64,000 bases of DNA from Chiloscyllium plagiosum (lineage: Eukaryota). The notes below the pieces were generated by a model. The model had not been told where the DNA came from, made no database searches, and saw only the letters and a list, made by a program, of their open reading frames with translations. Shown here one piece after another: positions 18,780 through 64,000 of the stretch; within the stretch, counting starts at the first letter, position 1, and every line of letters begins with the position of its first letter. The stretch spans positions 72,142,071 to 72,206,070 of the forward strand of contig NC_057718.1 in assembly GCF_004010195.1 (NCBI RefSeq). The letters are read 5' to 3'. The position numbers and the translations under genes are program-made.

Positions 18780-18920
18780 TATTTAGATGGGAATCTACAG
18801 TTAGTCATTCAATTTGAAAATTTATACACCTGGTAGGATAAGAAAGTGTAATTACCAACACTTCATCATGAGTTTGATTAAAGACAGGTTTGGTGATGGA
18901 AGAAATGGACTCCTCTACTA

Positions 18921-19010
18921 TTCCTGATGAAGGGCTTTTGCCCGAAATGTCGATTTTTTCCTGCTCCTCGGATGCTGCCTGACCAGCTGTGCTTTTCCAG
19001 CACCACTCTA
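18921..19010 (+). mobile_element. Hammerhead-bearing PLE-type mini element
   Basis: CTGATGA-A-GGGC-TTTT-GCCC-GAAA-TGTC followed by the shared GGATGCTGCCTGAC...TTTTCCAGCA tail. Confidence 0.7.
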
Positions 19011-19608: not shown

Positions 19609-20218
19609 GGGCGACATGATGGCACAGTGGTTAGCACTGCTGCCTCACAGCGCCAGATACCCGGGTTCAATTCCCACCTCAGGCGACTGACTGTGTGGAG
19701 TTTGCACGTTCTCCCCGTGTCTGCGTGGGTTTCCTCCGGGTGCTCCGGTTTCCTCCCACAGTNNNNNNNNNNNNNNNNNNNNNNNNNNNNNNNNNNNNNN
19801 NNNNNNNNNNNNNNNNNNNNNNNNNNNNNNNNNNNNNNNNNNNNNNNNNNNNNNNNNNNNNNNNNNNNNNNNNNNNNNNNNNNNNNNNNNNNNNNNNNNN
19901 NNNNNNNNNNNNNNNNNNNNNNNNNNNNNNNNNNNNNNNNNNNNNNNNNNNNNNNNNNNNNNNNNNNNNNNNNNNNNNNNNNNNNNNNNNNNNNNNNNNN
20001 NNNNNNNNNNNNNNNNNNNNNNNNNNNNNNNNNNNNNNNNNNNNNNNNNNNNNNNNNNNNNNNNAGGTGAATTGGCCATGCTAAATTGCCCGTAGTGTTA
20101 GGTAAGGGGTAAATGTAGGGGTATGGGTGGGTTGCGCTTCGGCGGGGCGGTGTGGACTTGTTGGGCCGAAGGGCCTGTTTCCACACTGTAAGCAATCTAA
20201 TCTAAAAAAAAAAAAAAA
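19609..20218 (+). mobile_element. tRNA-derived SINE (HE1/V-SINE-like) spanning an assembly gap
   Basis: Head 19609-19762 and tail 20065-20218 match the complete copy at 30650-30968. Confidence 0.85.
19763..20064. other. Assembly gap (302 N)
   Basis: Run of N. Confidence 1.
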
Positions 20219-20246
20219 TTTAGGATCTGTTTTCATTTACAAATGA

Positions 20247-20640
20247 TGTGGAGATGCTGGTGTTGGACTGGGGTGGACAAAGTTAAAAATCCCACAACAC
20301 CAGGTAATAGTCCAACAGGTTTATCTGGAAGTACAAGCTTTCAGAGCACTGCTCCTTTAAATTCTGTGTCCTAGTACCTGATATAGTAACAGATTAAAGT
20401 GTCATGCAACTGATGCAAAGTACTGAACAAACCTACATTTGTATTAATCACTTAAAATGGCTGTGTGATTAATATGTAAATTCCAGAACATTTTTCAAGT
20501 CACAGTCCCAAGATAACTTAAGTTTTTTAATATAAAACCTTATCAGCTCAGATAATACATTAATAGTGTGAGTCTGTCTGCATCCCAATCTTGAGTCAGA
20601 CTGATTTTATTTCCAAAGTAGGAGTACCATGCAAGTTGAA
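20247..20640 (-). mobile_element. Degenerate PLE terminal-repeat fragment
   Basis: 20247-20357 is reverse-complement similar to 39985-40095 (hammerhead region and tail). Confidence 0.6.
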
Positions 20641-23312: not shown

Positions 23313-23908
23313 GATTTGCCATTACTAAAGACTAAAACTCATTGCTTTTCTCAATGAGGAAGAATATTACCAACTGCAATGAAACCCAGAAGTACTAAAG
23401 AAACTCAGCAAGTCTGACAGATATTGGGGATAGTAAAAGAGTTCACATTTCACCTGTAATATGACTCTTCTTCAGACTGTCCAATTGTTCTACACCCAAC
23501 TCCACATCAGAATGTGGGTTCCCTGCTGCTGCTTTGAAGTGAAACCTGAACAGACTCCATTCAACATTCCTCTCCTTCACCAAGCTTAGCTTGTTCTCTC
23601 ATTGAACAACTTCTTGAGTAATTTATTTCATTTCTTCCAAGTAAATGGTATGACTACGAGTATTTGTATGCACTCCAGCTATGCCTGGATTTGTGTGAAA
23701 TACACCTTGCTCCAGTTCTACTCAGCCTCCACAAACCCTCCACCTCCAAGTCTTCTCCAGAAATTAAATCTCTTCAAGTTTGCTTCTCATTTCTTCATTT
23801 GCTCACAGGGTCCATCTCTGACTCTTCTCTTCAAAGAGAAATAAACTGTACAGCAGAAAAAGAGGCCCTTCAGGCCACCAAAACTACACCAACACATACA
23901 GTCATTGA

Positions 23909-24150
23909 GGGGAAGGTGAGGACTGCAGATGCTGGAGATCAGAGTGTGGTGCTGGAAAAGCGCAGCCAGTCAAGCAGCATCCAAGGAGCAGGAGAATCAA
24001 CATTTCAGGCATAAGCTCTTCATCAGGAATGAGACTTGTGGGCCAAGGGGGCTGAGAGATAAATGCGAGAGGGAGGGGATGAGGCTGGAGGGTGGGGGGG
24101 GGGGGGGGGAAGGTAGCTGGGAATGTGATAAGTAGATGAAGGTAGGGGTG
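23909..24150 (-). mobile_element. PLE terminal repeat with degenerate hammerhead
   Basis: Reverse complement CTGATGAAGAGCTTATGCCTGAAATGTTGA plus the shared tail. Confidence 0.65.
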
Positions 24151-27494: not shown

Positions 27495-28530
27495 CCATTG
27501 ACAACAGGTACAAGAGTAGGCCATTTGGCCCAGAGAAATTGCTCTGCCATTCATCATGATCACAGTATATTCTCCTCCTCGACACCGTAGCCCTGCTCGC
27601 TACCTAGATTGCGTGTCTAGAATTCCATTTATTCCTTTTAAATATATTTAGTAACCTGACCCAACCATCTTATTTGGTCGAGAATTCCACATACTCATCA
27701 CTCTGAGTGAAAGTGAATTCTCCATCTCAGTTCTAAATCTGTACTCTGACACCATGACCCCTTCTTCTAAATGCCTCCAACCAGAGGGACCATCACTGCA
27801 TCCAGTCTTATCTTCACCGGTCAGAATTTTATATGTTTCAGAGTGATCCCTTCTTATTTTCTCTCCCAAATCTAATAAGTATACCTAGTTGACCTGATCT
27901 CACCTCATGCGACAAACTTATCAGCCCAGTAATCAACCTGGTGAACCCTCAGTGAACTCCCTCTCATGACAAGTCCAAGATTTCTTCAGTAGAAAGACCA
28001 AAACAGCATTCAATACAGCAGGTGTGATCTCATGAAGCTGAAAATGTGTTGCTGGAAAAGCGCAGCAGGTCAGGCAGCATGCAAAGAGCAGGAGAATCGA
28101 CGTTTCGGGCATGAGCCCTTCTTCAGAGCTGCAGTTGCTTGTATAGAATGGTTGCTCTTGCACTCAAATACTCCTGCAGTGAAGACTAACATACTATTTG
28201 CCTTTCTAACTAATTGTTGCACCACTATACTTGCTTTCAGTGACCAGTATACAGTACAAAGATAACCAGACCTCTTTGCACATCAACATTTTCCCATTTA
28301 AATAATACCCTGCCTTTTTGTTTTTCCTATCTAAGTGCTATCTAAGTGGGATAACTTCACACTTATCCACATCATACTGCATCTGCCATGTGTTAATCCA
28401 TTAAATCAATTTGTCTAAAACCCCTTGACAAGTCCTCCTCAAAATTCACAATTCCACTCAGTTTTATGTCATCTGCAAACCTAGAAATGTTAGATTTAAC
28501 TCACTCATCACATAATTGGCATGTACATGT
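27495..28530 (-). mobile_element. Old CR1 3' fragment
   Basis: Degenerate RT C-terminus (ETYKIL; FADD-like at ~28470) and 3' UTR. Confidence 0.6.
28041..28126 (-). mobile_element. Hammerhead mini element with intact core
   Basis: Reverse complement CTGAAGA-A-GGGC-TCAT-GCCC-GAAA-C-GTC-GA; AGCTG repeated on both sides. Confidence 0.75.
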
Positions 28531-28535
28531 ATTCT

Positions 28536-30150
28536 GGGAGAAAGTGAATACTGCAAGTGCTGGAGATCAGAGTCGAGAAGTGTGACATTGGAAAAGCACT
28601 GCAGGTCAGGCATCATCTGCGCTGCTGGAGAGTTAACATTTTGGGCATAGACCCTTCATCAGTAATGTTGGGCGGGGGCGGGGGGGGGGGGGGGGGGATT
28701 CTGGGATGAGGTGGGAAGAAGGAAGAATAGGAAACTGGGGAAATAGACATTGATGCCATGTGGTTGGAAAGTCCCAAGGTGGAAGATGAAGCATTCTTTC
28801 ACCAGGCGAAAGTGAGGACTACAGATGCTAGAGCTCAGAATCGAGAGCGTAGTGCTGGAAAAACACAGCAGGTCAGACAGCATCCCAGGAGCAGGTGAAT
28901 CGACGTTTCAGGTATAAGCCCTTCACCAGGTGTCAGGTGGCTAGGATTTTTCAGTGGAGGCGGCCCAGGACTTACATGTCCTTGATGGAGTGGAGGGGGA
29001 ATTGAAGTGGTCGGCCACAGGGCGATGGGGTTGTTTGGTTCGTGTATTCCAGAGATTAGATTAAATTACCTGCAGTGTGGAAACAGGCCCTTTGGCCCAA
29101 CAAGACCCTTCGAAGAGCAACCCACCCAGATATTCTCTAAAACATTCGTGAGATGGTGTCCTGTCTCCCTAATGTACAGGAGACTACATCGAGAGCAACA
29201 GACACAGTAATGAGGTACTTGGATGTGCAGGGAAATCTCTACTGGATGTAGAAGGATCCTTTGGGGCCTTAGATGGAGGTGAGGGGGTTGGTGTGGGCGC
29301 AGTTTTACACCTCTTGTGGTGGCAAAGGGAAGGTGCTGGGAGAGGAGGGTGTGTTGATGGGGGGGGGCACCTGGACCTAATGAGGAAGTTGCGAAGGGAA
29401 TGGTCTCAGTGGAATGCTGATAGGAATGGGAGTGCAATATATCTCTGGTGGTGAGGTATGGCTTAGGTAGCAGAAATGGCAGAGGATGATGCGTTGTATC
29501 TGGGGATTGGTGAGAAGGAAAGTGAGGACCGGGGGTGGTTTCTGGGGGCTGTTGTGGTTGGAAGGGTGGAGTTCAATGGTGGAGGTGCAGGAAGTAGAGG
29601 AGACGTGCTAGAGGGAATTGTTGACCACGTGCTAGGAGAAATTGTGGTCCTTGGCATTGTTGACCACATCTCCCCCCTTACGTCCATCCAAGGTCCCAAA
29701 GAATCTTTTTGCATCCAGCAGAGATTTTCCTGAATATCCAAACATCTCACCTACTGTGTCCATTGCTCTTGATGTGGTCTCCTCTATATTGGGGAGACAG
29801 GATGCCAACTCGCAGAACATTTCAAAGAACACCTCTGGCATATGCATCAAACAACCCCACCGCCTGTGGCCAACCACTTAACTCCCCCTCCCACTCCACC
29901 ATGAACATGCAAGTCCTGGGCCTCCTACATTTCCAAATTGGAGGCACCTGACACCTGGAAGAAGAAAGCCTCATCCTCTGCCTTGGGACCCTCCAACCAC
30001 ACAGCATCAAAGTTGATTTCAGTAGTTTTCTCATCTCCCTTTCTCTCATCTAATCCCAGATCCAACCCTCCAACGGGGCACTGCCCTCTTGTACTGTCCC
30101 ACCTGTCCATCTTCCTTCCTACCTGTCCAATGGACCCTCTGCTCTGACCT
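28536..30150. mobile_element. Cluster of PLE fragments in both orientations, two degenerate hammerheads and a SINE tail fragment
   Basis: GIY-YIG-like remnants (CSRCSLLYIRET); 29660-30030 is inverted relative to 28730-29300. Confidence 0.65.
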
Positions 30151-33194: not shown

Positions 33195-33829
33195 TATTAA
33201 AAGAGTTAATTTGTTCTACTGACCTGCAAGAAATTGAATGCCTGGGGGTAAGGCGGTGTGTCTTTGTCTTATAGGTGGAATGTGGGAGGTTTACATGGCC
33301 ATTTCCTTGCCACTCAGGGATGATTTACATTTTAATCCAGAAATCAATAAGAATATTACAGTTGGATTGTGACTACTCCCCTATAGATACAAAAACACAG
33401 TTTCCAACAGATGAGACCATAAAGGGATGATTTGCATTACATTATTTCTGGAGGTGGGCTGGAATGTAACTATGAGGGGATGGCTGAGGGTTGTCTTGTG
33501 GGTAGTTGAAACTTTATTGCTGGAACAGCACAGCAGGTCAGGCAGCATCCAGGGAACAGGAGATTCGACGTTTCGGGCACAGGCCCTTCTTCAGGAAACT
33601 TGTCTTGTGGGTAGTACTAACTGTGATGTTGAGAGTTTAGTATAAAGGACAGACTGTTTTCCTTGTTTAGAGAGAGCATTTGCCACGACCCTGTAAGCTC
33701 TCCGTTCAAGGTTTCTCCAGAAAACTTGTAATGTACTGTGCTTAATAAATTTGGTTGCTTTTTCACAGAGGTTGGTTTGTTACAGTTGCATCAAGTGTGT
33801 AAGAATCTCAAGAGTAAAACAACTTAACA
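33195..33829 (+). mobile_element. Solo LTR-like element
   Basis: TATAAA at 33641, AATAAA at ~33744, ends in AACA; patchy similarity to 12159-12778. Confidence 0.45.
33507..33599 (-). mobile_element. 93-bp hammerhead mini element with 16-bp TSD
   Basis: TSD TTGTCTTGTGGGTAGT (33491-33506, 33600-33615); reverse complement core CTGAAGA-A-GGGC-CTGT-GCCC-GAAA-C-GTC-GA. Confidence 0.85.
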
Positions 33830-34379
33830 TTGCCTGTAAACTCTTCTGTGTGGTCTTCTCTCTCACTGTGCCTGAAGGGCTGTACTCAAAGCTTATGATT
33901 TCAGATAAACCTGCTGGACTATAACCTGGTGTCATGTGACTTCTGACTTTGTCCATCACAGTGCAGTACTGGTACCTCCACATCCTCATAACACCGACAA
34001 CTCTGCACGGCACAGCCACTTGTGGTGCTACAGACTTTGCAGACCAAAAGAACATGTGCACATAGTGCATCTTTTTCAACTCAATTGAACAGGCGACAGC
34101 CATTCTATTGTTCATTTCACAGACTAATCAAAGTCAACCAAAATTCCTGGTTTGAGATTTACACAAAACTTAGTTAACTGTCAATCACCACTTTACTGGT
34201 GTATTTCCCATTGCAAAATCTGTACTAATCAGCACATTTGTTCTCATACAGTAAAATAATTGCTTCCCTACAAATTGGTATTTCTTGTGAGTTATCTTAA
34301 GGAGTGCAAAACAAAATGCATCTTTTCTCAGCAATACTCGTACAGTACTACTGAACGTAAAATTAAAACACCTCCACTA

Positions 34380-35040
34380 CAATTCTCAAAGGATCACAGA
34401 GAAGTCCTTTGCTGAATCTGACTTTCATGTTTGAATTCGGGCATCTTGAACTGCTTTTCTTTTCTTTGTCCTGGTTCAATTTCATCTGGTGAGCTCTCCA
34501 GTACTGATAAGAATGTGATATGCAATGGCTTCTTCTATCATATTACTACATCAAATATCCCAATCACTTCCACTCCAGAAAAGTCAACAGCTATCTCATT
34601 CTGTATGCTTGATGATCTTCTGAAGCAGCTGAAATTCCAAACTGCATGTTCTTCTTAAATGGCATCCATAATGTTACAAGAAAATTTCTGCTTTCATCCA
34701 ACGAGAGTAGTAAAGATTTTTGCCTTGGCAAGTTGTGACAACTTCAATCTCTTCAAGATTTTATTGAAGTTCTTCTAGGTTGTTTCACCATGTTGCAGAC
34801 CAATCTGTGTCTCTTTCTTGATTCATTCCTCCTTTTCCAGCTCTGCTTAATTTTCAGGTGGACCTGAGAGCAGCCAGATCTCTCCAGATGATAAGATGGT
34901 TTCACAAGCTCATCTACTTCAAATTATTTACCAGGGTGACATCAAAGACTTGTGAAAACATTCTATTTTAGGTTCTGTTCAGCAGTCAATGGTCTGGTAT
35001 TCAGTGAAACCAAAATTACCAGACTTTAAACTTTTTCAGC
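34380..35040 (-). mobile_element. Highly decayed Ty3/gypsy reverse transcriptase fragment
   Basis: Manual translation of the reverse complement gives LDESRNFLVTLWMPF...MQFGISAASE, resembling gypsy RT (LDEES..LTTF.TPF...MPFGISSAPE). Confidence 0.6.
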
Positions 35041-35719
35041 TGGGATGAGTGGATATTGTTCATGTGTACTTACCACGAGTACAAACAGTCTCAATTTTGC
35101 CTTCAATAGCTTCTTTTTGCTTCTTGGTGCAATGGTAATGTCCCCTCCTTTGAGCCAGGAGGCTTGGGTTCAAGTTCCACCTACTCAGAGGTGTATAACA
35201 ACATCCCTGAACAGGTTGATTAGAAAACAAACACATAGCACCACTAGGAACAAATTACTGCAGACGCTGGAATCTGTACTGAAGACAACAAATGGTGGCG
35301 ATCACAGCGCCCATAGAGAGAGAGAGCAAGCTAATATTCTGAGTCTAGATGATTCTTCATCAGAGCTGAAGTAAAGTGTAGAGGGGACAGTATTTATGCT
35401 ATAGTTGGGGGAGGAAGAGTTTGGCAGGGCAGTGAAGAAAAGATGTTGGTAGTTCAGCATACACAATCAGAATGTGAGAATGGCAGAATAATGGTGTGTC
35501 TCCTGCCAGAATTGAAAGGATACTAAGTGGGATAGGAGGAAAGGGAGGATATGATAACAACCCAAAAGAAAGGGAAGTCATCTAGATTCAGATGTTAGCT
35601 TTGTTCTCTTTCCATGGATGCTGTAAGACCCTCTGTACATAGAACCAGTATCTTCCTGACACTTATCTTGACACTCTACATCTGCAGTCGTCATTCCAAC
35701 AGTCACACCATGATGTTGC

Positions 35720-36135
35720 CTGAGATGAAAAGTCTCAGTTAAGAAGAGAGACTGGATAGGTTGAGTTTGTTTTCCTTGAAGCACAGGAGGCTGAGGGGAT
35801 ATCTGATTGAAGTATACAAAATGATAAGAGGCATAGATAGCGATCATAAGAATCTTTTCCCTGCAGCAAACATGTGTAAGACCAAAAGGCATAAGTTTAA
35901 AGTGAGAAGTGACTTACAGTACATCTGATAAAAAATATTTTCAATCAGAGGGTAATAAAAATAAAGAACCCACTGCCTGAAACAGTGGTGGAGACAGGTA
36001 CTGTTGCAACACTTAAGAAGTATCTAGCACTGAAATTGCCAGGACTAGTGTATAACATGATTAGTGTAGTTTGGTGTTTGTTAGCACATGCATGGTAGAC
36101 CGAAAAGGCCGTTTCTGTGCTGTCTGACTCTATAT
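35720..36135 (+). mobile_element. Old CR1 3' end
   Basis: RRLRGYLIEVYKMIRGID and a GACTCTAT-type tail. Confidence 0.7.
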
Positions 36136-36142
36136 AACTCCT

Positions 36143-36233
36143 TCCTGAAGAAGGGCTTATGCCCGAAACGGCGATTCTCCTGTTCCCTGGATGCTGCCTG
36201 ACCTGCTGCCCTTTTCCAGCAACACATTTTCAG
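36143..36233 (+). mobile_element. 91-bp hammerhead mini element with 15-bp TSD
   Basis: TSD CTCTATATAACTCCT (36128-36142, 36234-36248); core CTGAAGA-A-GGGC-TTAT-GCCC-GAAA-C-GGC, with the cleavage triplet mutated. Confidence 0.85.
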
Positions 36234-36296
36234 CTCTATATAACTCCTGTTATCCAAGGAAGATGAAATGGAGAAAGTTCAAATTAGCATAGATCA

Positions 36297-36725: not shown

Positions 36726-37088
36726 ATAGTCAGAAGTCTGTATTTACACTTAAGTCTCCCTGGTCCTGGACTCCTTGTAGAAATATTTTTATGTTACGTC
36801 TGCAGTTTTCCTTTCAAACTCTTGTTATCTCAATTTGAGTTGTTTTGTGATGCAAATAAACACATGAATATCTAAAATGCTGCATCACTCATTACTCAAC
36901 ACCAGGTTACAATCTAGCAGGTTTAATTGGAAGCAAACAAGCTTTCGGAGCGCCGTTCCTTCAAGTGGTTGTGGAGGACGCAATTGTAAGGCACAGAATT
37001 TATAGCAAAAATTTACAGTGTGATGTAACCGAAATTATACATTGAAAAATACCTTGATTGTCTAGGAGGTAAAAGCAATGACTGCAGA

Positions 37089-37402
37089 TTAGATTAGATT
37101 ACTTTACAGTGTGGAAACAGGCCCTTCGGCCCAACAAGTCCACACCGACCCGCCGAAGCGTAACCCACCCATACCCCTACATTTACCCCTTACCCAACAC
37201 TACGGGCAATTTAGCATGGCCAATTCACCTGACCTGCACATCTTTGGACTGTGGGAGGAAACCGGAGCACCCGGAGGAAACCACACAGACACGGGGAGAA
37301 CGTGCAAATTCCACACGTTCAGTCGCCTGAGGCGGGAATTGAACCCGGATCTCTGGCGCTGCGAGGCAGCAGTGCTAACCACTGTGCCACCGTGCCGCCC
37401 AC
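37089..37402 (-). mobile_element. Young tRNA-derived SINE inserted in a hammerhead mini element (37068-37502)
   Basis: Near-identical to the 30650 copy; the flanks rejoin to the element seen at 38139-38240. Confidence 0.88.
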
Positions 37403-39225
37403 AACAGATTCTGGATTAGTGGTGCTGGAAGAGCACTGCAGTTCAGGCAGCATCCAAGGAGCTTCGAAATCGACGTTTCGGGTAAAAGCCCTTCATCAGG
37501 AATAAAAGTCTTTCACTTCTTTCGTGTGTAAATCACAAAACGTTTTTTAAAAGTTGCATTCTAAGATTAACGAACAATTGGTGTTAGCTAGACAATATGT
37601 TGAAGGTGTTAGCCCCCTGTGTTCTCTGTCTATGCCATGATGTTTAGATTGATTCTAATCTAAAAAGTGAGATAACAGAATTTTACATGAATTCATGCAG
37701 GTTTTGAGCAAACTACAATGTAATCCTGCAAGTACCAACTGCCAACCACCAAGCAACAACTGCCAAACCTCAAACAGATCATTGTTCGTAGCAAGCTGCC
37801 TGGCTTTCAGGACAATCCCTACATCTTGTCACGGTAGGCGTTGCAAGACGTTGTCAGAGTGTGGACATTACACATGGGGACATCTCCCACCATGTATGTG
37901 GAAGGTACTCATGTGACTCAGCCAACGTTGTCTATCTTATTTTCTCTTGTCTATCTTATACGTTGCAGGCAAGGATGCCGTGAGGCATGGTACATTGGGG
38001 AAACCGAGAAAGGCTTCGGCAACGGATGACACTGCACAACAATCAACAGACAGGAGTGTTTCCTCCCAGTGGAGAGAGGAGAACTTCTTCAAGGCAGGCA
38101 TCCTTGCAAGAGGATTTGCTGTAGGGTTAAAATCAACTAGGTAAAAACAATGACTGCAGATGCTGGAAACCAGATTCTGGATTAGTGGTGCTGGAAGAGC
38201 ACAGCAGTTCAGGCAGCATCCGAGGAGCAGTAAAATTCGAGTTTGTTTCAGGACATGGTTGAAGAGCTTCAGGGCAGAGGAGATGACCTGGGGGTTGCAG
38301 TCAGTTGCACTTTACCGCAAACCCACAGACAACCTCACAATACTACACTTCTCCAGCTTCCACCCAAAACATATTAAAACAGCCATCCCCTATGGACAAG
38401 CCCTACGTGTATGCCGGATCTGCTCAGATGAGGAGGAACGTGACAGGCACCTGGAAGTACTCAGGGATGCCCTCATAAGAACGGGGTAAGTTGCTCAACT
38501 CATCGACCGCCAGTTCCGACGTGCCACAGCAAGGAACCATAATGACCTCCTCAGGAGACAGATACATGCTGCAACTGATAGGGTACCCTTTGTTGTTCAG
38601 TACTTCCCAGGAGCTGAAAAACTATGCCATGTTCTTCGTGACCTGCAACACATTATCAGTGAGGATGAGCACCTCGCCAAGTCATTCCCCACACCTCCAC
38701 TGCTTGCCTTTAAACAACCGCCAAACCTCAAACAGATCATTGTTGGTAGCAAGCTGCCCGGCTTTCAGGACAACGCCATACAACCCTGTCACGGTAGGCG
38801 CTGCAATACGTGTCAGAGTGTGGACATGGATACCACCATTACATGTGGGGATACCTCCCATCTTGCATCATGTACATGGCAGGTACCCATGTGACTCAGC
38901 CAACGTTGTCTATGTTATACATTGCAGGCAAGGATGCCCTGAGGCATGGTACATTGGGGAAACCGAGCAAAGGCTACAGCAACGGATGAATGGGCACCGC
39001 ACAATAATCAACAGACAGGAGTGTTCCCTCCCAGTTGGGGAACACTTCAGCAGTCCAGGACATTCGACCTCGGACCTTCGGGTGACCATCCTCCAAGGCG
39101 GACTTCAGGACAAACAGCAGCGAAAAGTGGCTGGGCAGAGGCCGATAGCTAAGTTCCATACCCATAGGGAGGGCCTCAACCAGGACTTTGGGTTCAGGTC
39201 ACACTATAGGTGACCACCATTTACT

Positions 39226-39582
39226 ATACACACACACAGACACTCCGACACACAGACACACACACACACACAGGCACCCCTGTACACGCACATACACACG
39301 AACACACATATTAACAGACATGCACACAGACACTCACACACACCCTTACAGACACACACACTCCCACATGCATCCTCTCAGAGACTTAGACCACTCTACA
39401 CTCACGCATACACATATACACTCCCTCTCACAGACACTCACAAGCCCCCACCCCAGACACACTCCCACACTCACACATGCACCCCCTCAAAGACTTAAGA
39501 GACTCTACACTCACATAGACATGCATATACACTCTCTCACACAGACACTCACAACCTCCCCACCCCAGACACACACACACAC
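39226..39582. repeat. Degenerate (CA)n-rich low-complexity tract
   Basis: Visible CA repeats with ~130-bp internal duplication. Confidence 0.9.
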
Positions 39583-39975
39583 AAAGTCCCAATACATATA
39601 TTTTGTGGGGTGAATTTGTACTTGCAGAGTTACATTGTGCTTTGCTCAAAAACTGCATGAATTCATGTAAAACTCTGTTATCTCACTTTTTAGATTAGAA
39701 TCAATCGAAACATCATGGCATAGACACAGAACACAGGGGGCTAACACCTTCAACATATCGTCTAGCTAACACCAGTTGTTACAGTTAACCTGAGAATGCA
39801 ACTTTTTAAAAAAGGTTTTGTAATTTACACATGAAAGAAGTGAAACTATCATGGTATTCGAACAGATAAAAGACTCAACAGACAACCAAGGTATTTTTCA
39901 ATGTATAATTTCAGTTACGTCACACTGTAAATTTGTTCTATAAATTCTGTGCCTTACAATTGTGTCCTCCACAAC

Positions 39976-40010
39976 CACCTGATGAAGGAGCGTCGCTCCG
40001 AAAGCTAGTG
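39976..40010 (+). ncRNA. Minimal hammerhead ribozyme motif in PLE terminal repeat
   Basis: CAC-CTGATGA-A-GGAGC-GTC-GCTCC-GAAA-G-CTA-GTG: stem I CAC/GTG and a perfect 5-bp stem II. Confidence 0.75.
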
Positions 40011-40612
40011 TGCTTCCAATTAAACCTGTTGGACTATAATCTGGTGTTGTGTGATTTTTAACTTTGTACACCCAGTCCAACACTGGCATCTCCAAATCAT
40101 CACTCATTACTGCTTTGGTCAGTGTGCCAAGGATATCTTTCCCCCGCACATGGGCAATTGGACAAATACAATGTTTGTTTCTAAAATACAGAGTTTGTTT
40201 CTAAGAATGTGGTCATTTTGAATTTTTGGGAACGTCAAGCAATTCCCCTCCCTCACACTCCTTTAAATCCTATGGCCTTATCCTTCTCTGCTGTACATCA
40301 ACTCCAGGGCTAATTGTTCAAATCCACCTAAACACATATACCAAAAGAAACAGGGTTAGAGACATGATAGTTGGAGCAAGCAATTACTTGGTATTCTGAT
40401 AAAAGATTCATATATTTCACTGAAGGATATGTCAGCCAAAATGTTTCACAAACAATGGTACATATGAAGTTAACAAAGTTGGCATGGGGTGCAATTAATG
40501 ACTGATAGACAGAACAAGTTACACCCCAAGATAGCTTACCTGTATAAAGGTAAAACTTGTTCTCCGCAACATTTACAATTAAGGATGGTCAGAAATTCCT
40601 GACCAATTATCC

Positions 40613-40991
40613 CTTTTTTAAAATATATTTTTTATTGAAAAAAGATTTTTTTTTAATATTACAACATACACACAACACAACAATTTACAACAGTACAAAG
40701 ACACCCACTAATTACATAACAAATAATAACTAACAACAAATTTTAAAATTCATGACAATAGTAATAGTTATGATAATAATACAGCTCAGCAAAACAAAGA
40801 TTATCGAGAGCATAAATTTATACATATTCATGTGGTTGTAATTCCTCCTCTCTGGTTACCACATTCATTAAACAGAATCACCATGGCTAGAAAAAGGCCC
40901 TTATTAATATCGCAGAAACATCTGTGCCCCAGTAGTCCAAAGAGGGCCGCCATATTTTATAGAAATTTTCCATTTTATGGTGCACCATACT
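40613..40991 (-). mobile_element. L1 3' end (ORF2 C-terminus, UTR, poly-A)
   Basis: MVHHKMENFYKIWRP...ILIRAF is homologous to 8879-8980; poly-T tracts on the plus strand. Confidence 0.8.
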
Positions 40992-41491
40992 NNNNNNNNN
41001 NNNNNNNNNNNNNNNNNNNNNNNNNNNNNNNNNNNNNNNNNNNNNNNNNNNNNNNNNNNNNNNNNNNNNNNNNNNNNNNNNNNNNNNNNNNNNNNNNNNN
41101 NNNNNNNNNNNNNNNNNNNNNNNNNNNNNNNNNNNNNNNNNNNNNNNNNNNNNNNNNNNNNNNNNNNNNNNNNNNNNNNNNNNNNNNNNNNNNNNNNNNN
41201 NNNNNNNNNNNNNNNNNNNNNNNNNNNNNNNNNNNNNNNNNNNNNNNNNNNNNNNNNNNNNNNNNNNNNNNNNNNNNNNNNNNNNNNNNNNNNNNNNNNN
41301 NNNNNNNNNNNNNNNNNNNNNNNNNNNNNNNNNNNNNNNNNNNNNNNNNNNNNNNNNNNNNNNNNNNNNNNNNNNNNNNNNNNNNNNNNNNNNNNNNNNN
41401 NNNNNNNNNNNNNNNNNNNNNNNNNNNNNNNNNNNNNNNNNNNNNNNNNNNNNNNNNNNNNNNNNNNNNNNNNNNNNNNNNNNNNNNNNNN
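40992..41491. other. Assembly gap (500 N)
   Basis: Run of N. Confidence 1.
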
Positions 41492-41599
41492 TTGACCCTC
41501 GCCCTTTGATGCCTGACTCTGGAATCCCTGAACCCAAACCCTGCCCCACTCATCCAGGCCCCAGCTTTGACCTGGCGAAATCTGCTGCTGTCCTACAGC

Positions 41600-47713: not shown

Positions 47714-48640
47714 TTGGTAATTCGGCCTTTTTTAATCACTTGCACTGTGTCTTGTGTCCCTGGGTGTGGCAGGTCTTTCTGTGAGCTGAAAGGTTCATAG
47801 GTCGTCCCGAAAGCTGTTATCCCGACAGTCATACAGTGGGTAGGCCGTCTCAATGCCGGTCGCCCCAAGAGAAGGAGAAGGAGTCCTTGAGGTGGCCCAA
47901 AGGTGTGTCAGGGTGGACTGAGAGCCAGAAAGGGCATAGGGGGCGGCCTACCTTGTTGCTGGAAGGTGGAGGGGGGGCAGGCCATATGCTGGTTTACCAG
48001 GGGTATCTGTTTAATGTGCACTATTTTATTGTTCGGTTGATCAGACTGTCTTGTATGTATTTGTGTTGACTGTGTCCTTTTTGGTAAGATAAGGTGGGAT
48101 TTGGGGTTCGTCCGCATTTCTCTGAGAACTGGTTGTACAGTGGGGTTTGGGGTTTAGCCTTGCTGCCCCTTTCCTCTGTAAATTGCTGTTTCTTGTAAAG
48201 GAAGAGTGAAATCCGAAGCTATACTTCAAACTGTACTCTCATGCTTAAATCTTCCTACGTTGGTCTCTTGCCAGAATTTTCAAATGTTAGATACAAGAAA
48301 ACTGCAGATGCTGTAATCCAAAGTAGACAAGCAGCAAGCCAGGCAGCATCAGGAGGTGGAGAAGTCAACATTTCAGGTATAACCCTTTTTCAGGACTGGA
48401 GGTGGGGATAAGGGGAGATGCAGATAAAGGGGGTAGGGGGGAGTGGTGAGCTAGTCATAAGTGAGCACAGGTAGAGGGTACAGCCTGGTTGGTTGATGGG
48501 AGAAATGAATCCGGTTGGTAGCTTGATCAGAGGAATGGAAGGGAAAAGGAAGGGCTGGAAAGGGAGGTTATTTAAAACTGGAGAACTCAGTGTTCAGTCC
48601 TCCAGGCTGTAGGTTGTCCAGATAGAAGGTGAGGTGTTAT

Positions 48641-49843
48641 CATAGAAAAGCAGCCCCTTTGGTCCAACTCGTCTAGGCTGACCAGTTATCCGAATCTAAT
48701 CTAGTCCCATTTGCCAGCACTTGGCCCATCTCCCTTGAATCCTTCCTATTCATATTCCCATCCAGATGCCTTTTAAAAGCTGTAATTGTACCAGCCTCCA
48801 TCACTTCCTCTGGCAGCTCATTCCATACATGCACCATCGTCTGCGTAAAAGAAGTTGCCTTTAGGTCCCTTTTATATCTTTCCCCTGAAGAGGGAGATGG
48901 CATGGCGCAGATTGGCACTAGGTACACAGACATATAAGTTGGCTGCTGAGCCATCAGGTGGCCAACTTGACACACAAGATGGCTGCCAGATCATAATATG
49001 GAGAGAAATAGCAGAGCAGATACAAATACTGCCTGGGGTCACCAGAATGCCAGCACAATGCACTCACAACCCAATTGATTAGTTTAAGGTGGGTGGGGGA
49101 GAGAATACACATGAGTAATGAACATTGCCCGCCGCAGTGTCTGGCTCCAGCCAACACCTCTTATAGAAATGCCAGCAGCTTGATACAGACTCAATACGAA
49201 ATGCTAATAGCTGGACTGCAGTAATCATCCTTTTCAGGAAGAGAAATTGGCACCCATTACTATAACAATAGATTTCCATGCATACATTGAAACTCACAAT
49301 GTCTACACTGAAACTGACAATGACCACGTGGAAATTAACAAAGGCTGCGCTGGAACTGACAAAGACTGTATCAAAACTATCAATGATTCTGCAATGATTG
49401 CCATAAACAAACCATGTTCCAAAGACAATAATCTCATCACTGATCTATTGTATCACAAGATGTATAAAATTTTCTTGACACGTGCTTGGGTTGAGAGAAG
49501 ACTTGCAGCTGACCACTGTGCTGTTGGTGTCTTTCTCTCCCCAGAGCTCCAGTATTTCCTTATGCACTAAATTCTGTCATTGAACCCCCATTCTGCCTCT
49601 GAGACTGGTGGTTTTCCTCACAACACCCCTCTCACCCTAAACCTATGCTTTCTAGTTCTGGACTCCCCACCCCAGGAAAAAGACTTTGTCTGTTTGTCCT
49701 GTTCATGCCCCTCATGATTTTATAAACCTCTATAAAGTCACTCCTCAGCCTCTGATGCTCCAGGGAAAACAGCCCCAGCCTACTCTGCCTCTCTCAATAG
49801 CTCAAATCCTCCAACCCTGGCAACATCCTTGTAAATCTTTTCT
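48641..49843 (-). mobile_element. 5'-truncated CR1 inserted in the PLE
   Basis: Matches 13095-13556; 8-bp TSD GGTGTTAT (48633-48640, 49844-49851). Confidence 0.85.
48886..49625 (+). mobile_element. 740-bp solo LTR inserted in the CR1 fragment
   Basis: TG...CA termini, 4-bp TSD CCCC, TATAAAA at ~49463; removal restores CR1 ATCTTTCCCCTCTCACCC. Confidence 0.75.
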
Positions 49844-52120
49844 GGTGTTATTCCTCCAATTTGCGGCCCAATTCACTCTGGCAATGGAGGAGGCCAAGGA
49901 TGGTAATGTTGAGAGGGAATGGGAGGGTGAATTAAAGTGGACGGTGACAGAGAGGTCAGGTCAGCCTTTGCAGACCCAGCTGAGATGCTCAGCAAAACGT
50001 GCCTCTAGTTTACATTTACTCTCACCGATGCAGAGAAGACCACACATCAGGATCACCGGGCACAGTAAACTAGTTTGGAGGAGAGGCAGGAGGAGAGACC
50101 TCTGTCTCATCTTGAAGGACTGTTTGGTGTCCTGGATGGAGTTAAGGGGATTGGTGCTCCAGCAGGTTTTGCATCTTTTGCACGGGAAGGTACTGGGGGT
50201 TTTTGGCGGAGGGGGGAAATGATGTTGGCGGGGACAGTGGTGCGAACCATGGATTGGTGAAGGGAACGGTGTTTGTGGAAGGCAGAGAGGAATGGGGAGG
50301 AGATGTTTTTGGTGGTGGGTACTAGTTAGAGTTGGTAGAAGTATTTAAGGATGATGCATTGGATTTGGGGACTGGTGGGGTAGAAGGTGAGGACAAGGTG
50401 TACCCTATCTTTATTGCATTTGGGGGTTTTAGAACAGTGGAGCAGGGAATGGAGGAGATGGAGTGGAGGGCTGTCTGGATGAAAGAGTGGAGGAAAAGCA
50501 CATTGTTCAAAATAGGTGGACATCTGGGATGCTTGGGAGTGGACTATCTCCTCGTTCAAGCAGATGTGGTGGAGGCAGAGGATCTATGAAAACAGAATGG
50601 ACTCTTTGCAAAATGCAGGGTGGGAGGAGGTGTAGTCCAGGTAGGTATGAGTTCATAGTAACCGTTCGTCTGTAGACTGTGGCCAAAGATGGAAATGAAG
50701 AGGTGAAGAAAATGTTAGAAGGTGTCCAAGATAGAGCATGTGAATTTAAAGGTGGGGTGGAAGTTGTTGATAGAGTTGATCAACTAGTCCAGTTCAGACT
50801 GGATGCAGGATGCAGCACCAATGCAGTCGTTGATGTAACGGTGAAAGAATTAGGGCATAGCACCTAAGAAGAGAGACTGTTCAACATAGCTGACAAAGAG
50901 GCAGGCATAGTTAGGGTACATCTGAGTGCCAATGGCTGACCCCTGGATTTGGAGGAAATAGGAAGTATTGGAGGGAATATTATTGTGGATGAGGGTTCAG
51001 CGAGGTGGCAGAGGGCATTGTTGGAAAGGGACTGGATGGGTCTGTTGGAGAGGAAGAAGCTGAAGGTCTCTAAGGGTATCCTTGTGGGGTATGGATGTGT
51101 ATAAGGACTGCATGTTCATAGTGAAGATAAAGTGCTGGGGACCGGGGAACTGGAAGTTCCTGAAGAGGTGGTTAGTGTCATGGATGTTGGTGGGAAGTGT
51201 CTGGACCAAGGGGGAGAGAATGGAGTTGAGTAGGAACAAATGAGTTCAATTAGGCAGGAGCACTCAGAGCCGACGATGGGTCAGCCGGGGTAGTTGGGCT
51301 TGTGGATCTTGGGGAGCAGGTAGTTGGAGGCAGTGGAGGGTACATCACGTAGGCAACAAGGTCATGGACAGTGTGAGTGATTTTGACCTGATGGGCCATG
51401 GTGTGGTTGTGGTCAAAGGGTATAGGACATCGTGTCAGAGAGCTGGTGTTCGGATTGTATGACAGAGAGGTCTGTCTTCCAGACTACCACCACTCTGCCT
51501 TTCTCAGTGGGTTTGATGGTGAAACAGGGATTGGTGTGAAGGGAGTGGAGAGCTGCATGTGTGGAGGGGATGTGGTTGGAGTGGATGAGGATGGGTGGAG
51601 AAACTAACATGGCCGATGTCATATTGGCAGTCAGCAACGGAGAGATCTAGGATGGGTAAGAGGCTGGTGGAGGGCTGTCCAAGTGAAAGATGAAGGTTTG
51701 AGGCAGGAGACGGGTTCCTCGGAGGGGAGATGGGAGTTTTTGTTGAAGAAAGCAAGGAGGCGACAGAAAAAGAGCTCCACGTGTTGGTGGTTATGGAATT
51801 CGTTGAGGTGGGGGCAGAGGGCCACAAATGTGAGCCCTTTACTAAGGATGGGCAACCATTTTCAAATTGCTGCTATCAAACACAGAATGATCTGGCTGCT
51901 TGTTCATGTAAATTTCCAGCAATAACCAGAACAAAAGCGAACTCAACATCTCCATGAATTTAAGCCTTCTTCCAAAGAGGGTGTTGAAACCTATTATGTC
52001 TTGACTGGGTCCTAATGACTCCACACTTATCAGCTGTGAAACATAATAGCTGTGCCAAGACCACATCATTACCTAAGTGACTAAACCCAAAAACCTAGTC
52101 TTTTGACAGAAACTGCTGAT

Positions 52121-58761: not shown

Positions 58762-60886
58762 TTAGAACATAGAACACAGAAAATTACAATGCAGTACAGG
58801 CCCTTCGGCCCTCAAAGTCGCACCGACCTGTGAAATCAATCTGAGCCCATCTAACTGACACTACTCCATTATCATCCATATGTTTATCCAATGACCATTT
58901 AAATGCCCTTAAATTTGGCAAGTCGACTACTGTTACAGGCAGGCCATTCCACGCCCTCACTACTCTCTGAGTAAAGAACCTACCTCTGACATTTGTATAT
59001 ATATCACTCTCAGTTTAAAACCATGTTCCCTCATGCTAGCCATCACCATCTGAGGAAAAAGGTCTCATTGTCCACCCTATCTAATCCTCTGAACATCTTG
59101 TATGTCTCTATTAAGTCACCTCTCAACCTTCTTCTTTCCAGCAAAAACACCCTCACTTCCCTCAGCCTTTCCACATAAGATCTTCCCTCCATACCGGGCA
59201 ACATCCTGGTCAATCTCCTCTGAACCTGTTCCAATGCTTCTACATGCTTCCTGTCTTGTGGTGACCAGAACTGTATGCAATACTCCTGATGTGACAGCAC
59301 CAGAGTTTTGTACAGCTGCAACATGACTTCATGGCTCTGAAACTCAATCCCTCTTCCAATAAAACCTAACACACTGTATGCCTTCTTAACAACCCTATCA
59401 ACCTGGGTGGCAACTTTCAGGGATCTATGTACCTGGACACTGAGATCTCTCTGCTCATCTGCTCTACCAAGAATCTTACCATTAGCCCAGTAATCCTGTT
59501 ACTCCTTCCAAAGTGAATCATCTCACACCTTTTCCCATTAAACTGCATTTGCCACTTCTCAGCCCAGCTTTGCACTGCTGCCTCACAGCGCCTGAGATCC
59601 GGGTTCAATTCCCGCCTCAGGCGACTGACTGTGTGGAGTTTGCACGTTCTCCCCGTGTCTGCGTGGGTTTCCTCCGGGTGCTCCGGTTTCCTCCCACAGT
59701 CCAAAGATGTGCAGGTCAGGTGAATTGGCCATGCTAAATTGCCCATAGTGTTAGGTAAGGAGTAAATGTAGGGGTATGGGTGGGTTGCGCTTCGGCGGGT
59801 CGGTGTGGACTTGTTGGGCCGAAGGGCCTGTTTCCACACTGTAATGTAATGTAATGTAATCTAATCTAATCTTATCTATGTCCATCCGCAACCTGCAACA
59901 TCCTTTGGCACTGGCTACAACTCCACCGACCTTAGTGTCATCTGCAAATTTACTATGCCATCATTTTACGCCCCATCTCGGTCATTTATAAAAATGACAA
60001 ATAGCACTTGCCCCAAAACAGATCCTTGCAGTACACCACTAGTAACTGAACTCCAGGATGAACATTTTCCATCAACCACTACCTTTTTTCAGCAAGCCAA
60101 TTATTGTTCCAAACCACTAAATCACCATTAATCCCATGTCTCCGTATTTTGTGCAATAGCCTACTGAAATCCATATGCACCACATCAGCCGCTTTATCAT
60201 CACCCACCTGTATGGTCACCTTCTCAAAGAACTCAATATGATTTGTGAGGCACAACCTACCCTTCACAAAACCGTGTTGACTATCCCTAATCAAATTCTT
60301 CCTTTCTAGATGATTATAACTCTTATCTCTTATAATCCTTTCCAATACTTCACCCACAACCAAAGTAAGGCTCACTGGTCTATAATTACCAGGGTTGTCT
60401 CTGCTCCCCTTCTTGAACAAGAGGACAATATCTGCTATCCTCCAGTCTTCTAGCACTATTCCTGTAGACAATGACAACATAACGATCAAAGCCAAAGGCT
60501 GTGCAGTCTCCTCCCTGGCTTTCCAGAGAATCCTAGGATAAAACCCATCTGGTCCTGTGGACTTAACTATTTTCATACTTTGCAGAATTGCTAATACCTT
60601 CTCCTTATGAACCTCAATCTCACCTAGTCTAATAACCTGTATCTCAGTGTTCTCCTCAACAACATTATCTTTTTCCAGTGTGAATACTGACAAAAAATAT
60701 TCATTAGCGCCACTCCTATCTCTTCGAACTCCACGCACAATTTCCCACGATTGTCCTTGAAAGGTCTACTCTTACTCTAGTCATTCTTTTATTCCTGACA
60801 TACCTATAGAAAGCTTGAGGGTTTTCATTGATCCTCCCTGCCAAAGACTTTTCATGTCCCCTCCTCGCTCTTCTTAGCTCTCTCTC
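58762..60886 (-). mobile_element. 5'-truncated CR1 LINE interrupted by a SINE
   Basis: ORF 60079-60738 NYRPVSLT, SQHGF; same family as 53092-56304. Confidence 0.9.
59571..59870 (+). mobile_element. Young, slightly 5'-truncated tRNA-derived SINE
   Basis: Near-identical to the 30650 copy. Confidence 0.9.
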
Positions 60887-62169: not shown

Positions 62170-64000
62170 AGAGTCATAGAGATGTACAGCATGGAAACAG
62201 ACCCTTCGGTCCAACCCGTCCATGCCGACCAGATATCCCAACCCAATCTAGTCCCACCTGCCAGCACCTGGCCCATATCCCTCCAAACCCTTCCTATTCA
62301 TATACTCATCCAAATGCCTTTTACATGTTGCAATTGTACCAGCTTCCACCACTTCCTCTGGCAGCTCGTTCCATACACGTGCCACCCTCTGAGTGAAAAG
62401 GTTGCCCCATAGGTCTCTTTTATATCTTTCCCCTCTTACCCTAACCCTATGCCCTCTCATTCTGGGCTCCCCAACCCCAGGGAAAAGACCTTGTCTACTT
62501 ATTGTTTTCCATGCCCCTCATAATTTTGTAAACCAATATAAGGTCACCCTCAGCCTCCGATGCTCCAGGGAAAACAGCCCCACCCAGTTCAGCCTCTCCC
62601 TACAGCTCAAATTCTCCAACTCTGGCAACATCCTTGTAAATCTTTTCTGAACCCTTTCAAGTTTCACAACGTCTTTCCGATAGGAAGGAGACCAGAATTG
62701 CACGCAATATTCCAACAGTGGCTTAACCAATGTCCTGTACAGCTGCAACATGACCTCCCAACTCCTGTAGGAGAAAGTCAGGACTGCAGATGCTGGAGAT
62801 CAGAGCTGAAAATGTGTTGCTGGAAAAGCGCAGCAGGTCAGGCAGGCTCATGCCCAAAATGTCGATTCTCCTGCTCCTTGGATGCTGCCTTACCTGCTGC
62901 GCTTTTCCAGCAATACATTTTCAGCTCCCAACTCCTGTACTCAATACTCTGACCAATAAAAGAAAGCATACCAAATGCCTTCTTCACTATCCTATCTACC
63001 TGCGACTCCACTTTCAAGGAGCTATGAACCTGCATTCCAAGGTCTCTTTGTTCAGCAGCATTCCCTAGGACCTTACCATTAAGTGTATAAGTCCTGCTAA
63101 GATTTGCTTTCCCAAAATGTAGCACCTCGCATTTATCTGAATTAAACTCCATCTGCCACGTCTCAGCCCATTGACCCATCTGATCAAGATCCTGTTTTAA
63201 TCTGAGGTACCCTTCTTCGCTGTCCACTACACCTTCAATTTTGGTGTCATCTGCAAACTTACTAACTGTACCTGTTATGCTTGCATCCAAATCATTTATG
63301 TAAATGATAAAAGTACCCAGCACCAATCCTTGTGGCACTCCACTGGTCACAGGCCTCCACTCTGAAAAACAACCCCCCACCGCCACCCTTTGTCCTCTAC
63401 CTTTGAGCCAGTTCTGTTTCCAAATGGCTAGTTCTCCCTATATTCCATGAAATCTAACCTTGCTAACCAGTCTCCCATGGGTAACCTTGTCGAACGCCTT
63501 ACTGATGTCCACATAGATCACACCTACCACTCTGCCCTCATCAATTCTCTTTGTTACTTCTTCAAAAAACTCAATCAAGTTTGTGAGACATGATTTCCCA
63601 TGCTCAAAGCCATGTTGACTATCCCTAATCAGTCCTTGCCTTTCCAAATACATGTACATCCTGTCCCTCAGGAATCCCTCCAACAACTTGCCCACTACCG
63701 ACGTCAGGTTCTCTGGCCTATAATTCCCTGGTTTGTCTTTACTGCCCTTCTTAAACAGTGGCATCACGTTAGCCAACCTCCAGTCTCCCGGCACCTCACC
63801 TGTGACTATCGATGATACAAATATCTCAGCAAGAGGCCCAGCAATCACTTCTCTAACTTCCCACAGAGTTCTAGGGTACACCTGATCAGGTCCAGGGGAT
63901 TTATCCATCTTGATGCGTTTCAAGACACCCAGCACTTCCTCCTCTGAATTATGGACATTTTGCAATGTGTCACCATCTATTTCCCTACATTCTATATCTT
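62170..64000 (-). mobile_element. CR1 LINE 3' half, runs off the window end
   Basis: RT ORFs 63438-63965 and 62838-63386 (SGVPQG, SKFADDTK); same family as 13095-17490. Confidence 0.92.
62770..62924. mobile_element. Inverted-dimer PLE mini element with 15-bp TSD
   Basis: TSD CTCCCAACTCCTGTA (62755-62769, 62925-62939); internal inverted repeat of the mini-element tail. Confidence 0.85.

What the first reader, a model, noticed from the sequence alone, without database searches (positions are those of the whole stretch)
33491..36248. ~90-bp ribozyme-only retroposons: minimal hammerhead plus fixed tail, inserted with 15-16-bp TSDs
Seen: the inserts 33507-33599 (16-bp TSD) and 36143-36233 (15-bp TSD) have no ORF, no pol III boxes and no poly-A. 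Each is CTGA(A/T)GA-A-GGGC-loop-GCCC-GAAA-C-G(T/G)C plus a ~55-nt tail. Similar units lie at 18921, 28041 and 62770, and longer versions at 23909, 28536, 28808, 37068 and 48290. The short copies start 0-5 nt upstream of the CUGA core, and three end at ...CATTTTCAG(CT). The stem II loop varies (TTTT, TCAT, CTGT, TTAT) while the GGGC/GCCC pairing holds, as expected if the source elements conserve the structure. Established: PLE terminal repeats carry minimal hammerheads, and non-autonomous ribozyme retroelements (retrozymes) exist. Inference: this may be a discrete ultra-short non-autonomous family mobilised by PLE RT/GIY-YIG, rather than random truncation products. I cannot confirm whether it is already catalogued.
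Basis: partly seen in the sequence, partly recalled or inferred. Interest (0 to 1): 0.7.

Follow-up and report, generated by a model that had tools for sequence, protein, structure and literature searches.

The report
Shark Penelope hammerhead end stubs
These ~90-base inserts are real, recent insertions of the ribozyme-bearing end piece of a known jumping gene (a Penelope-like element) in a shark genome; they are likely dead-end copies of the front of that element's RNA rather than a self-propagating ribozyme family, and matter mainly as records of how such elements copy themselves.

Summary
Both inserts and their 16- and 15-bp TSDs are real; contigs of a related species appear to lack both. 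They are the terminal repeat (minimal hammerhead plus tail) of Penelope-like elements (PLEs): the same module ends a decayed RT/GIY-YIG element at 48290-51553. But they are not one self-copying family: the stubs come from several subfamilies, one insertion (62770) holds both end types, the 5' ends lie about 30 nt before the ribozyme cut, stem II shows no covariation, and 36143 has a damaged cleavage triplet. Long copies carry TATA-like and initiator-like motifs placing a predicted transcription start at the pile-up, so the stubs are likely run-off cDNAs of the uncut RNA's front (inferred; no start was mapped). This scan reported the same in many other shark windows. Known kind of element, modest mechanistic interest.

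The parts
33491..33506 (.). TSD, first copy (16 bp)
   Evidence: exact repeat of 33600-33615
33507..33599 (-). 93-bp PLE end stub: 5 nt, minimal hammerhead core 33594-33567 (predicted cut between 33567 and 33566), tail ending at the short 3' site
   Evidence: organism B contigs begin at 33600 and run on elsewhere (records 1 and 9), suggestive of an empty site
33600..33615 (.). TSD, second copy (16 bp)
36128..36142 (.). TSD, first copy (15 bp); its last 5 nt match the parent's upstream sequence at 4 of 5
36143..36233 (+). 91-bp PLE end stub: core 36145-36172, cleavage triplet changed at 36171 (G where 99% of family depth has T), tail ending at the short 3' site
   Evidence: table 3; empty site inferred in organism B (records 8 and 16)
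36234..36248 (.). TSD, second copy (15 bp); first 4 nt equal the element's continuation
28036..28126 (-). stub of the same subfamily as 36143 (92%), starts at CUGA, short 3' end, no TSD found
18920..19009 (+). stub of another subfamily, starts 4 nt before CUGA, no TSD found
62755..62939 (.). head-to-head insertion 62770-62924 with 15-bp TSD (62755-62769/62925-62939): minus arm with long tail, plus arm with short 3' end
   Evidence: paralogous empty site at 13659-13673
28804..28930 (-). long-tailed stub starting at the hammerhead, inserted in an older PLE ORF; ~10-bp duplication overlapping its 5' start
37068..37503 (-). long-tailed stub starting 4 nt before CUGA, tail split by a dispersed repeat (about 37086-37404; SINE label recalled)
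23908..24150 (-). copy with about 125 nt of upstream UTR, TATA-like TTTATCT 33 nt before an initiator-like TCATTC, hammerhead at 24026, long tail
28536..28700 (-). older copy, hammerhead at 28662, long tail; 5' limit unclear (35 nt or continuous with the PLE ORF upstream)
48290..51553 (-). decayed PLE: RT 51553-50652, CxxC linker, GIY-YIG-type region about 50080-49850, interrupted 49844-48640, ORF end, 3' UTR with TATA-like and initiator-like motifs, hammerhead at 48393, tail

Best explanation
The inserts are the terminal repeat (minimal type I hammerhead plus tail) of endonuclease-bearing Penelope-like retrotransposons of a shark, inserted with 15-16-bp target duplications, and are likely dead-end run-off copies of the uncut front of the element's RNA, whose start is predicted to lie about 4 nt before the hammerhead core. 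Shown: identity with the end of an RT/GIY-YIG element, the TSDs, two 3' end classes about 35 nt apart, 5' pile-up at 0 to -5, retention of the core upstream of the cut site. Inferred: (1) a TATA-like/initiator-like promoter in the parent's pLTR starts the RNA at about -4; (2) the PLE protein nicks both strands 15-16 nt apart and primes reverse transcription internally at one of two sites about 90 and 125 nt from that start, helped by 2-4 nt of pairing with the target; (3) the enzyme runs off the RNA 5' end, giving a 90- or 125-nt cDNA; priming from both nicks gives head-to-head units such as 62770; (4) the stub lacks the TATA-like motif and the sequence downstream of the priming site, so it would not move again. 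PLE by-product: about 0.85; run-off at a transcription start as the cause of the pile-up: about 0.6.
For: PLE link: RT, linker and GIY-YIG region upstream of the same module at 48393; neighbouring PLE fragments match shark proteins at 67-86%. Insertions: TSDs; organism B contigs of 1025 nt stop at 36127, the base before the first TSD copy, and a contig of the same depth (9.69 in X12, 5.19 in X13) covers 36366, whereas organism A contigs run into the insert; empty paralog for 62770. Two 3' ends: 321 raw reads continue past 36237 with the long tail (agreement 0.91); contig loose ends pile up at 23908/23912 (611, 441) and 23941 (494); 62770 has both. 5' pile-up: 6 of 12 units in a 6-nt window, P<=5e-5 under geometric truncation for a window that far upstream, 5e-6 under log-uniform lengths; 527 contigs leave the reference at 24031 (-5); 10 of the 15 shown fold-back joints enter at 36141-36144. 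Parent exists: 125 raw reads join the 36143-type core to one shared upstream sequence (agreement 0.79). Promoter-like motifs: TTTATCT 31-33 nt before YCAKTC in 2 long copies and in that read consensus; TATAAA about 32-35 nt before an initiator-like A in two other PLE families (39979, 5717). Priming: TSDs begin with 4 and 3 nt equal to the element's continuation (36234, 62925). Literature: two internal RT start sites that define the PLE tail, both strands cut and extended, uncut RNA as main substrate, RNA needed about 55 nt beyond the start sites (PMC11167929); inverted pLTR plus tail with TSD (PMC3846280, PMC8557442).
Against: No transcription start was mapped; the promoter pattern was written after seeing the sequences and after reading the idea in scan notes. 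A cap-derived extra G is seen in at most 1 of 6 stubs (33599), and that G could be templated since it completes stem I. The 24031 pile-up and the 17-fold fall of read depth upstream of CUGA are mixed with other subfamilies' UTRs and with edge loss on a diverged reference; only 12 of 518 loose-end rows were shown. The tree does not reject a single short-end clade (p-AU 0.064) and the label is somewhat clustered (24-25 of 500 shuffles as low). In hammerhead families from other animals the 5' extents are spread from 1 to 300 nt, with no pile-up at 0 to -5. Frangieh et al. report priming without homology to the target, unlike the 2-4 nt seen here. D. virilis Penelope has an internal promoter (PMC2377424), so loss of the promoter in stubs is not certain. 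That the tail leads into the ORF start could not be shown.
Confidence: 0.7

Rival explanations
1. A discrete, self-propagating non-autonomous family of about 90 bp: stubs are transcribed from an internal promoter or by read-through and re-mobilised by PLE protein in trans.
For: Fixed ends and long TSDs; very high family depth; single short-end clade not rejected, p-AU 0.064; internal promoter in D. virilis Penelope; putative non-autonomous PLE derivatives are reported in Chlamydomonas (PMC8557442).
Against: Stubs carry tails of at least three subfamilies (81-92% alike); the long-tailed arm of 62770 is 97-100% identical to the short stubs over the shared part; one insertion has both ends; cleavage would remove the core; copies decay in core and stem II; none of 200 bootstrap trees put the short-end copies on one branch.
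Confidence: 0.1
2. Ordinary 5' truncation of longer PLE templates, with ends enriched at the hammerhead edge because the enzyme pauses there or anneals to the target by microhomology, and no role for a transcription start.
For: PLE insertions are known to be heavily 5'-truncated; 5' junction microhomology at 36143 (4 of 5 nt) and 28930 (about 9 nt); spread of 5' extents in other animals; an extra G in at most 1 of 6 stubs.
Against: The pile-up is far from smooth models; stem I would already be opened when the enzyme reaches -4 (inference); promoter-like motifs sit at the matching spacing in three families.
Confidence: 0.17
3. Monomers of a circular-RNA retrozyme whose ends are made by hammerhead cleavage and ligation.
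For: Same ribozyme type; retrozymes are related to pLTRs (10.64898/2026.07.22.740005); one window copy (38236) is joined to other sequence within 2 nt of the predicted cut.
Against: No tandem copies in the window; 5' ends lie about 30 nt before the cut; 3' ends do not lead back to the upstream side of the core; the hammerhead is minimal, not canonical.
Confidence: 0.03

Closest known systems
5'-truncated and inverted-pLTR-plus-tail insertions of EN+ Penelope-like elements (Arkhipova et al. 2013, PMC3846280; Craig et al. 2021, PMC8557442; passages read)
   Same: pLTR with hammerhead, optional 30-40-bp tail on one end, head-to-head inverted copy, TSD, RT plus C-terminal GIY-YIG parent with a CxxC linker (Neptune/Nematis-like by the description in PMC8557442)
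   Different: Insertions are reduced to 90-125 bp, TSDs are 15-16 bp (8-10 bp in the Adineta passages), and 5' ends pile up at the hammerhead edge
Minimal hammerheads (min-HHR) of metazoan PLEs (Cervera and de la Pena 2014, PMC4209133; first two of four parts read)
   Same: Type I core, extra nucleotide between 9 and 10.1, G10.1-C11.1, palindromic 15.2-16.2, no helix III, mostly single motifs attributed to truncated PLEs
   Different: Helix II is 4 bp; sharks are not mentioned in the parts read; ends and TSDs of single motifs were not analysed there
Poseidon PLE of Anolis, in vitro (Frangieh et al. 2024, PMC11167929; main text read)
   Same: Two internal RT start sites defining the tail; both strands cut and extended; uncut RNA as template
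   Different: Priming there is without target homology; run-off stubs ending at the RNA start are not described in the text read
Metazoan non-LTR retrozymes (Cervera and de la Pena 2020, PMC7229834, passages; Li et al. 2026, 10.64898/2026.07.22.740005, first three of five parts)
   Same: Non-coding, type I hammerhead, related to pLTRs, long TSDs when present; Li et al. also count solo monomers
   Different: Retrozymes are tandem repeats (mostly 150-450 bp) with canonical hammerheads and circular RNAs; these are single 90-bp stubs with minimal hammerheads whose ends do not match the cut

Membership tests
EN+ Penelope-like element (truncated copy) | Module is the 3' terminal repeat of an element with PLE-type RT and GIY-YIG endonuclease | tested here: met
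   48290-51553: RT about 30% to PLE-type proteins, CxxC linker, endonuclease region, UTR, hammerhead, tail; a related subfamily (65-70% in the module), decayed
EN+ Penelope-like element (truncated copy) | Optional 30-40-bp tail at one end | tested here: met
   Short and long 3' ends about 35 nt apart
EN+ Penelope-like element (truncated copy) | Inverted 5'-truncated copy at the 5' end, unit flanked by a TSD | tested here: met
   62770-62924 with 15-bp TSD and empty paralog; fold-back joints in contigs
EN+ Penelope-like element (truncated copy) | Clade placement (Neptune) by RT phylogeny | not tested
   Only the CxxC linker was noted; no RT tree built
Minimal type I hammerhead | Conserved core, extra nucleotide before helix II, palindromic 15.2-16.2 | tested here: met
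   33594 and 28126 intact; 36145 changed at 16.1
Minimal type I hammerhead | Helices I and II supported by covariation | tested here: inconclusive
   Window copies: no both-side change in helix II, one in helix I, no excess over shuffles. Other-animal groups with the same core: helix I pairs 27, 25, 23, 19 of 28 against shuffled 20.2, 14.0, 11.1, 10.4, groups not independent
Minimal type I hammerhead | Self-cleavage | not testable with these tools
   Needs an assay; monomer folds form helix II but not the active core
Non-LTR retrozyme | Tandem repeats with at least two consecutive hammerheads | tested here: not met
   All window copies are single or head-to-head; not testable genome-wide
Non-LTR retrozyme | Unit defined by cleavage sites, canonical type I hammerhead | tested here: not met
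   5' ends about 30 nt before the cut; no helix III
Non-LTR retrozyme | Circular RNA | not testable with these tools
   Only a poly-A single-cell run was laid
Self-propagating non-autonomous family (SINE-like) | Short copies descend from short masters (one clade, private mutations) | tested here: inconclusive
   2 changes on the tree, 0% of bootstrap trees with one branch, but p-AU 0.064; several subfamily tails argue against
Self-propagating non-autonomous family (SINE-like) | Promoter inside the copied unit | tested here: inconclusive
   TATA-like motif lies outside the stubs; no pol III boxes by eye; a downstream pol II element cannot be excluded

The most novel reading that the evidence does not exclude
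Run-off stubs that begin at the transcription start keep an internal pol II promoter (as D. virilis Penelope has) and some have become masters: a 90-125-bp, ribozyme-bearing, PLE-dependent retroposon class, among the shortest mobile elements, present at very high copy in sharks, whose hammerhead would cut only when two RNAs or the PLE protein come together.
Probability: 0.1. Interest if true: 0.75.

Novelty: new member of a known kind. Interest (0 to 1): 0.3.

Why it matters
As a family it is ordinary: truncated PLE ends with a described ribozyme motif. Its use is as a large natural record of the poorly understood PLE insertion cycle: two priming sites, both-strand priming, 15-16-nt nick stagger, short primer-template pairing, uncut template and a predicted run-off at the RNA start are all testable by counting junctions in a shark assembly plus one CAGE experiment. 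One literature search for Penelope + strong-stop + hammerhead found nothing, which is weak evidence that the run-off reading is not in print.

Tried and rejected
No genome is held, so no genome-wide end histogram. Rfam: 0 matches. Tail pattern: 0 hits in viral and metagenome contigs; core pattern: 0 hits in prokaryote genomes; the core pattern found 120 metagenome loci from what appear to be other animals, none with the shark tail pattern. Stem II covariation rejected for the window copies; placing one gap differently in the oldest copy (48393) would give a single T-A swap. Fold z-scores of six units are -1.95 to 0.08, no support for a fold beyond helix II. No RNA holder was listed for the stretch; X22 laid nothing; X21 shows both strands with a 1.3-1.8-fold excess in one direction that would be element-sense, from a poly-A library, so uninformative on short RNAs or starts; no 'many molecules begin or end' places were listed. 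The empty-site joints themselves were not among the 15 of 813 joints shown, so absence in organism B is inferred from contig limits and depths. Protein searches did not identify an ORF start after the tail (the two hits are unrelated repeats). Ribozyme-cut 5' ends, retrozyme monomers and chance TSDs were considered and rejected. Dfam/Repbase could not be searched; searches for a published shark family (listings only) showed none, which does not prove it is uncatalogued. Supplements of the bioRxiv preprint (its one cartilaginous-fish species and family table) could not be seen and may bear on this.

Full report
Observation. The two inserts exist at the stated coordinates with perfect 16- and 15-bp flanking repeats; 11 of 3000 random placements gave a repeat of 15 or more. 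BLASTN with the two inserts finds 12 related units in the window, besides a few hits of 27 nt or less at E>0.1 that I left out. Read-laying supports real, recent insertion. Organism A (another sample) has contigs running from flank into the 36143 insert. In two samples of organism B (33 differences in a 1349-nt flank contig) a 1025-nt contig stops at 36127, the base before the first TSD copy, while a contig of identical depth covers 36366; contigs of 225 and 177 nt start at 33600 and run on for 64 and 22 more letters. Summed contig depth on the inserts is about 1e5 times that of unique flank; the tool warns that this is no copy number, but the family is clearly very abundant.

Host and parent. 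PLE fragments in the window match shark proteins (86% over 96 aa to one named for Chiloscyllium punctatum), so the host is likely a shark of that group. The module (hammerhead plus tail) terminates a decayed element on the minus strand: RT 51553-50652, CxxC linker, GIY-YIG-type region, an interruption, ORF end, 3' UTR, hammerhead at 48393. That copy is an older relative (65-70% in the module). For the 36143 subfamily itself, 125 raw reads join the core to one shared upstream sequence and 321 continue into the long tail, so longer parents exist.

The ribozyme. The motif fits the minimal hammerhead of Cervera and de la Pena 2014. The predicted cut lies 28 nt after the C of CUGA, so the inserts begin about 30 nt upstream of it and were copied from uncut RNA; cutting a stub transcript would remove its core. 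At 36171 the copy has G where 99% of family depth has T, changing the cleavage triplet. In the 12-row alignment helix II is 89.7% paired with no both-side change, helix I 69.4% with one, neither above shuffles: loops vary between subfamilies, but this is conservation, not covariation, and old copies decay. Across 28 groups of the same core from other animals (128 units in 120 loci; one of 29 groups lacked flanks) helix I pairs covary (27, 25, 23, 19 of 28 against 20.2, 14.0, 11.1, 10.4 shuffled; groups not independent), which supports the motif class, already known. Rfam has no match.

3' ends. There are two classes about 35 nt apart. The insertion at 62770-62924 carries one of each under a single 15-bp TSD, with an empty paralog at 13659-13673. 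This is the PLE tail, which Frangieh et al. tie to two internal RT start sites and to extension of both cut strands. At 36234 and 62925 the TSD begins with 4 and 3 nt equal to the element's continuation; at 33600 3 nt probably do (continuation inferred from other subfamilies). This suggests short primer-template pairing, unlike the in vitro report.

5' ends. Relative to CUGA the 12 units start at -5, -4, -4, -2, -1, 0, +9, +27, +49, about -35, about -125 and beyond -2000. Six in a 6-nt window that far upstream has P<=5e-5 under geometric truncation and 5e-6 under log-uniform lengths; a cluster anywhere is less rare for short means (0.17 at mean 20). Contig data agree but are confounded: 527 contigs leave the 24026 reference at -5 against 206 at -39, and raw-read depth falls from 755 to 43 within about 25 nt upstream of the core, but other subfamilies' UTRs and edge loss contribute. 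In other animals' families the extents are spread, so the pile-up is not universal.

Why there? Long copies have TTTATCT 31-33 nt before an initiator-like YCAKTC whose A is at -4; two other PLE families in the window have TATAAA about 32-35 nt before an initiator-like A upstream of their hammerheads. The motif labels are from my own knowledge, the pattern was post hoc, and I first met the transcription-start idea in scan notes. TATA-plus-initiator pLTRs are reported in Adineta. If the RNA starts at -4, internal priming at the first copy of the start sites gives 90- or 125-nt run-off cDNAs. A cap-derived G is seen in at most 1 of 6 stubs, so that support is lacking here, and I could not show that the tail leads into the ORF start.

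Family or by-product? The four named short copies are 81-92% alike with different subfamily tails; the long-tailed arm of 62770 is 97-100% identical to two of them over the shared part; the tree of 11 rows (62845rv left out as too short) needs 2 changes and no bootstrap tree had one branch, though one clade is not rejected (p-AU 0.064). Stubs lack the TATA-like motif and the downstream RNA that the Anolis protein needs. By-product is the better reading; an internal promoter, as in D. virilis, keeps self-propagation at about 0.1. They fail retrozyme criteria (tandem units, canonical ribozyme, ends at the cut).

Papers seen: PMC11167929 main text and start of methods; PMC4209133 parts 1-2 of 4; 10.64898/2026.07.22.740005 parts 1-3 of 5; passages of PMC8557442, PMC3846280, PMC2377424, PMC7229834; others as search listings only. 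No supplements were read.

Verdict. Observation largely right, interpretation partly. New shark members of a known kind; interest 0.3. The scan has noted the same in this and other shark-like genomes many times; those notes are leads, not support.

Noticed in passing
window 38071-38290 (-): A copy lacking the core: other sequence is joined within about 2 nt of the predicted cleavage site (junction 38240-38238, 3-nt ambiguity), and the tail runs on about 70 nt past the long end to an ATG at 38101. Could record a ribozyme cut plus ligation or a template switch, and could show the ORF start; protein searches did not confirm.
   Followed up: partly
window 38292-40100 (+) and 36891-37738 (-): A second PLE family (RT end and GIY-YIG 70% to shark proteins, CA-rich UTR, TATAAA, hammerhead at 39979 with 5-bp helix II) with an inverted partial copy; short pieces of its end at 33888-33988 and 20243-20357 also start near the hammerhead.
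   Followed up: partly
window 5164-5830 (+): Third PLE family: GIY-YIG fragment (Pfam PF01541, E 2e-4, just under the cut-off), TATA-like motif and a hammerhead at 5717 with a 7-bp helix II.
   Followed up: partly
window 28500-30100: Nested PLE pieces in both orientations, with a long-tailed stub inserted at a site that resembles its own first 9 nt.
   Followed up: partly
L003, L018, L046: Short (about 130-160 bp) hammerhead stubs with 9-14-bp flanking repeats also occur in metagenome contigs that appear to be animal DNA; several loci (L016, L019, L052) are head-to-head pairs.
   Followed up: partly
window 14057-15588, 59043-60765, 62838-63437: LINE-type RT and endonuclease fragments (Pfam RVT_1, Exo_endo_phos); one is the target of the 62770 insertion.
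   Followed up: no
window 19700-20060 and 40990-41500 (approximate): Two assembly gaps, 802 N in all.
   Followed up: no
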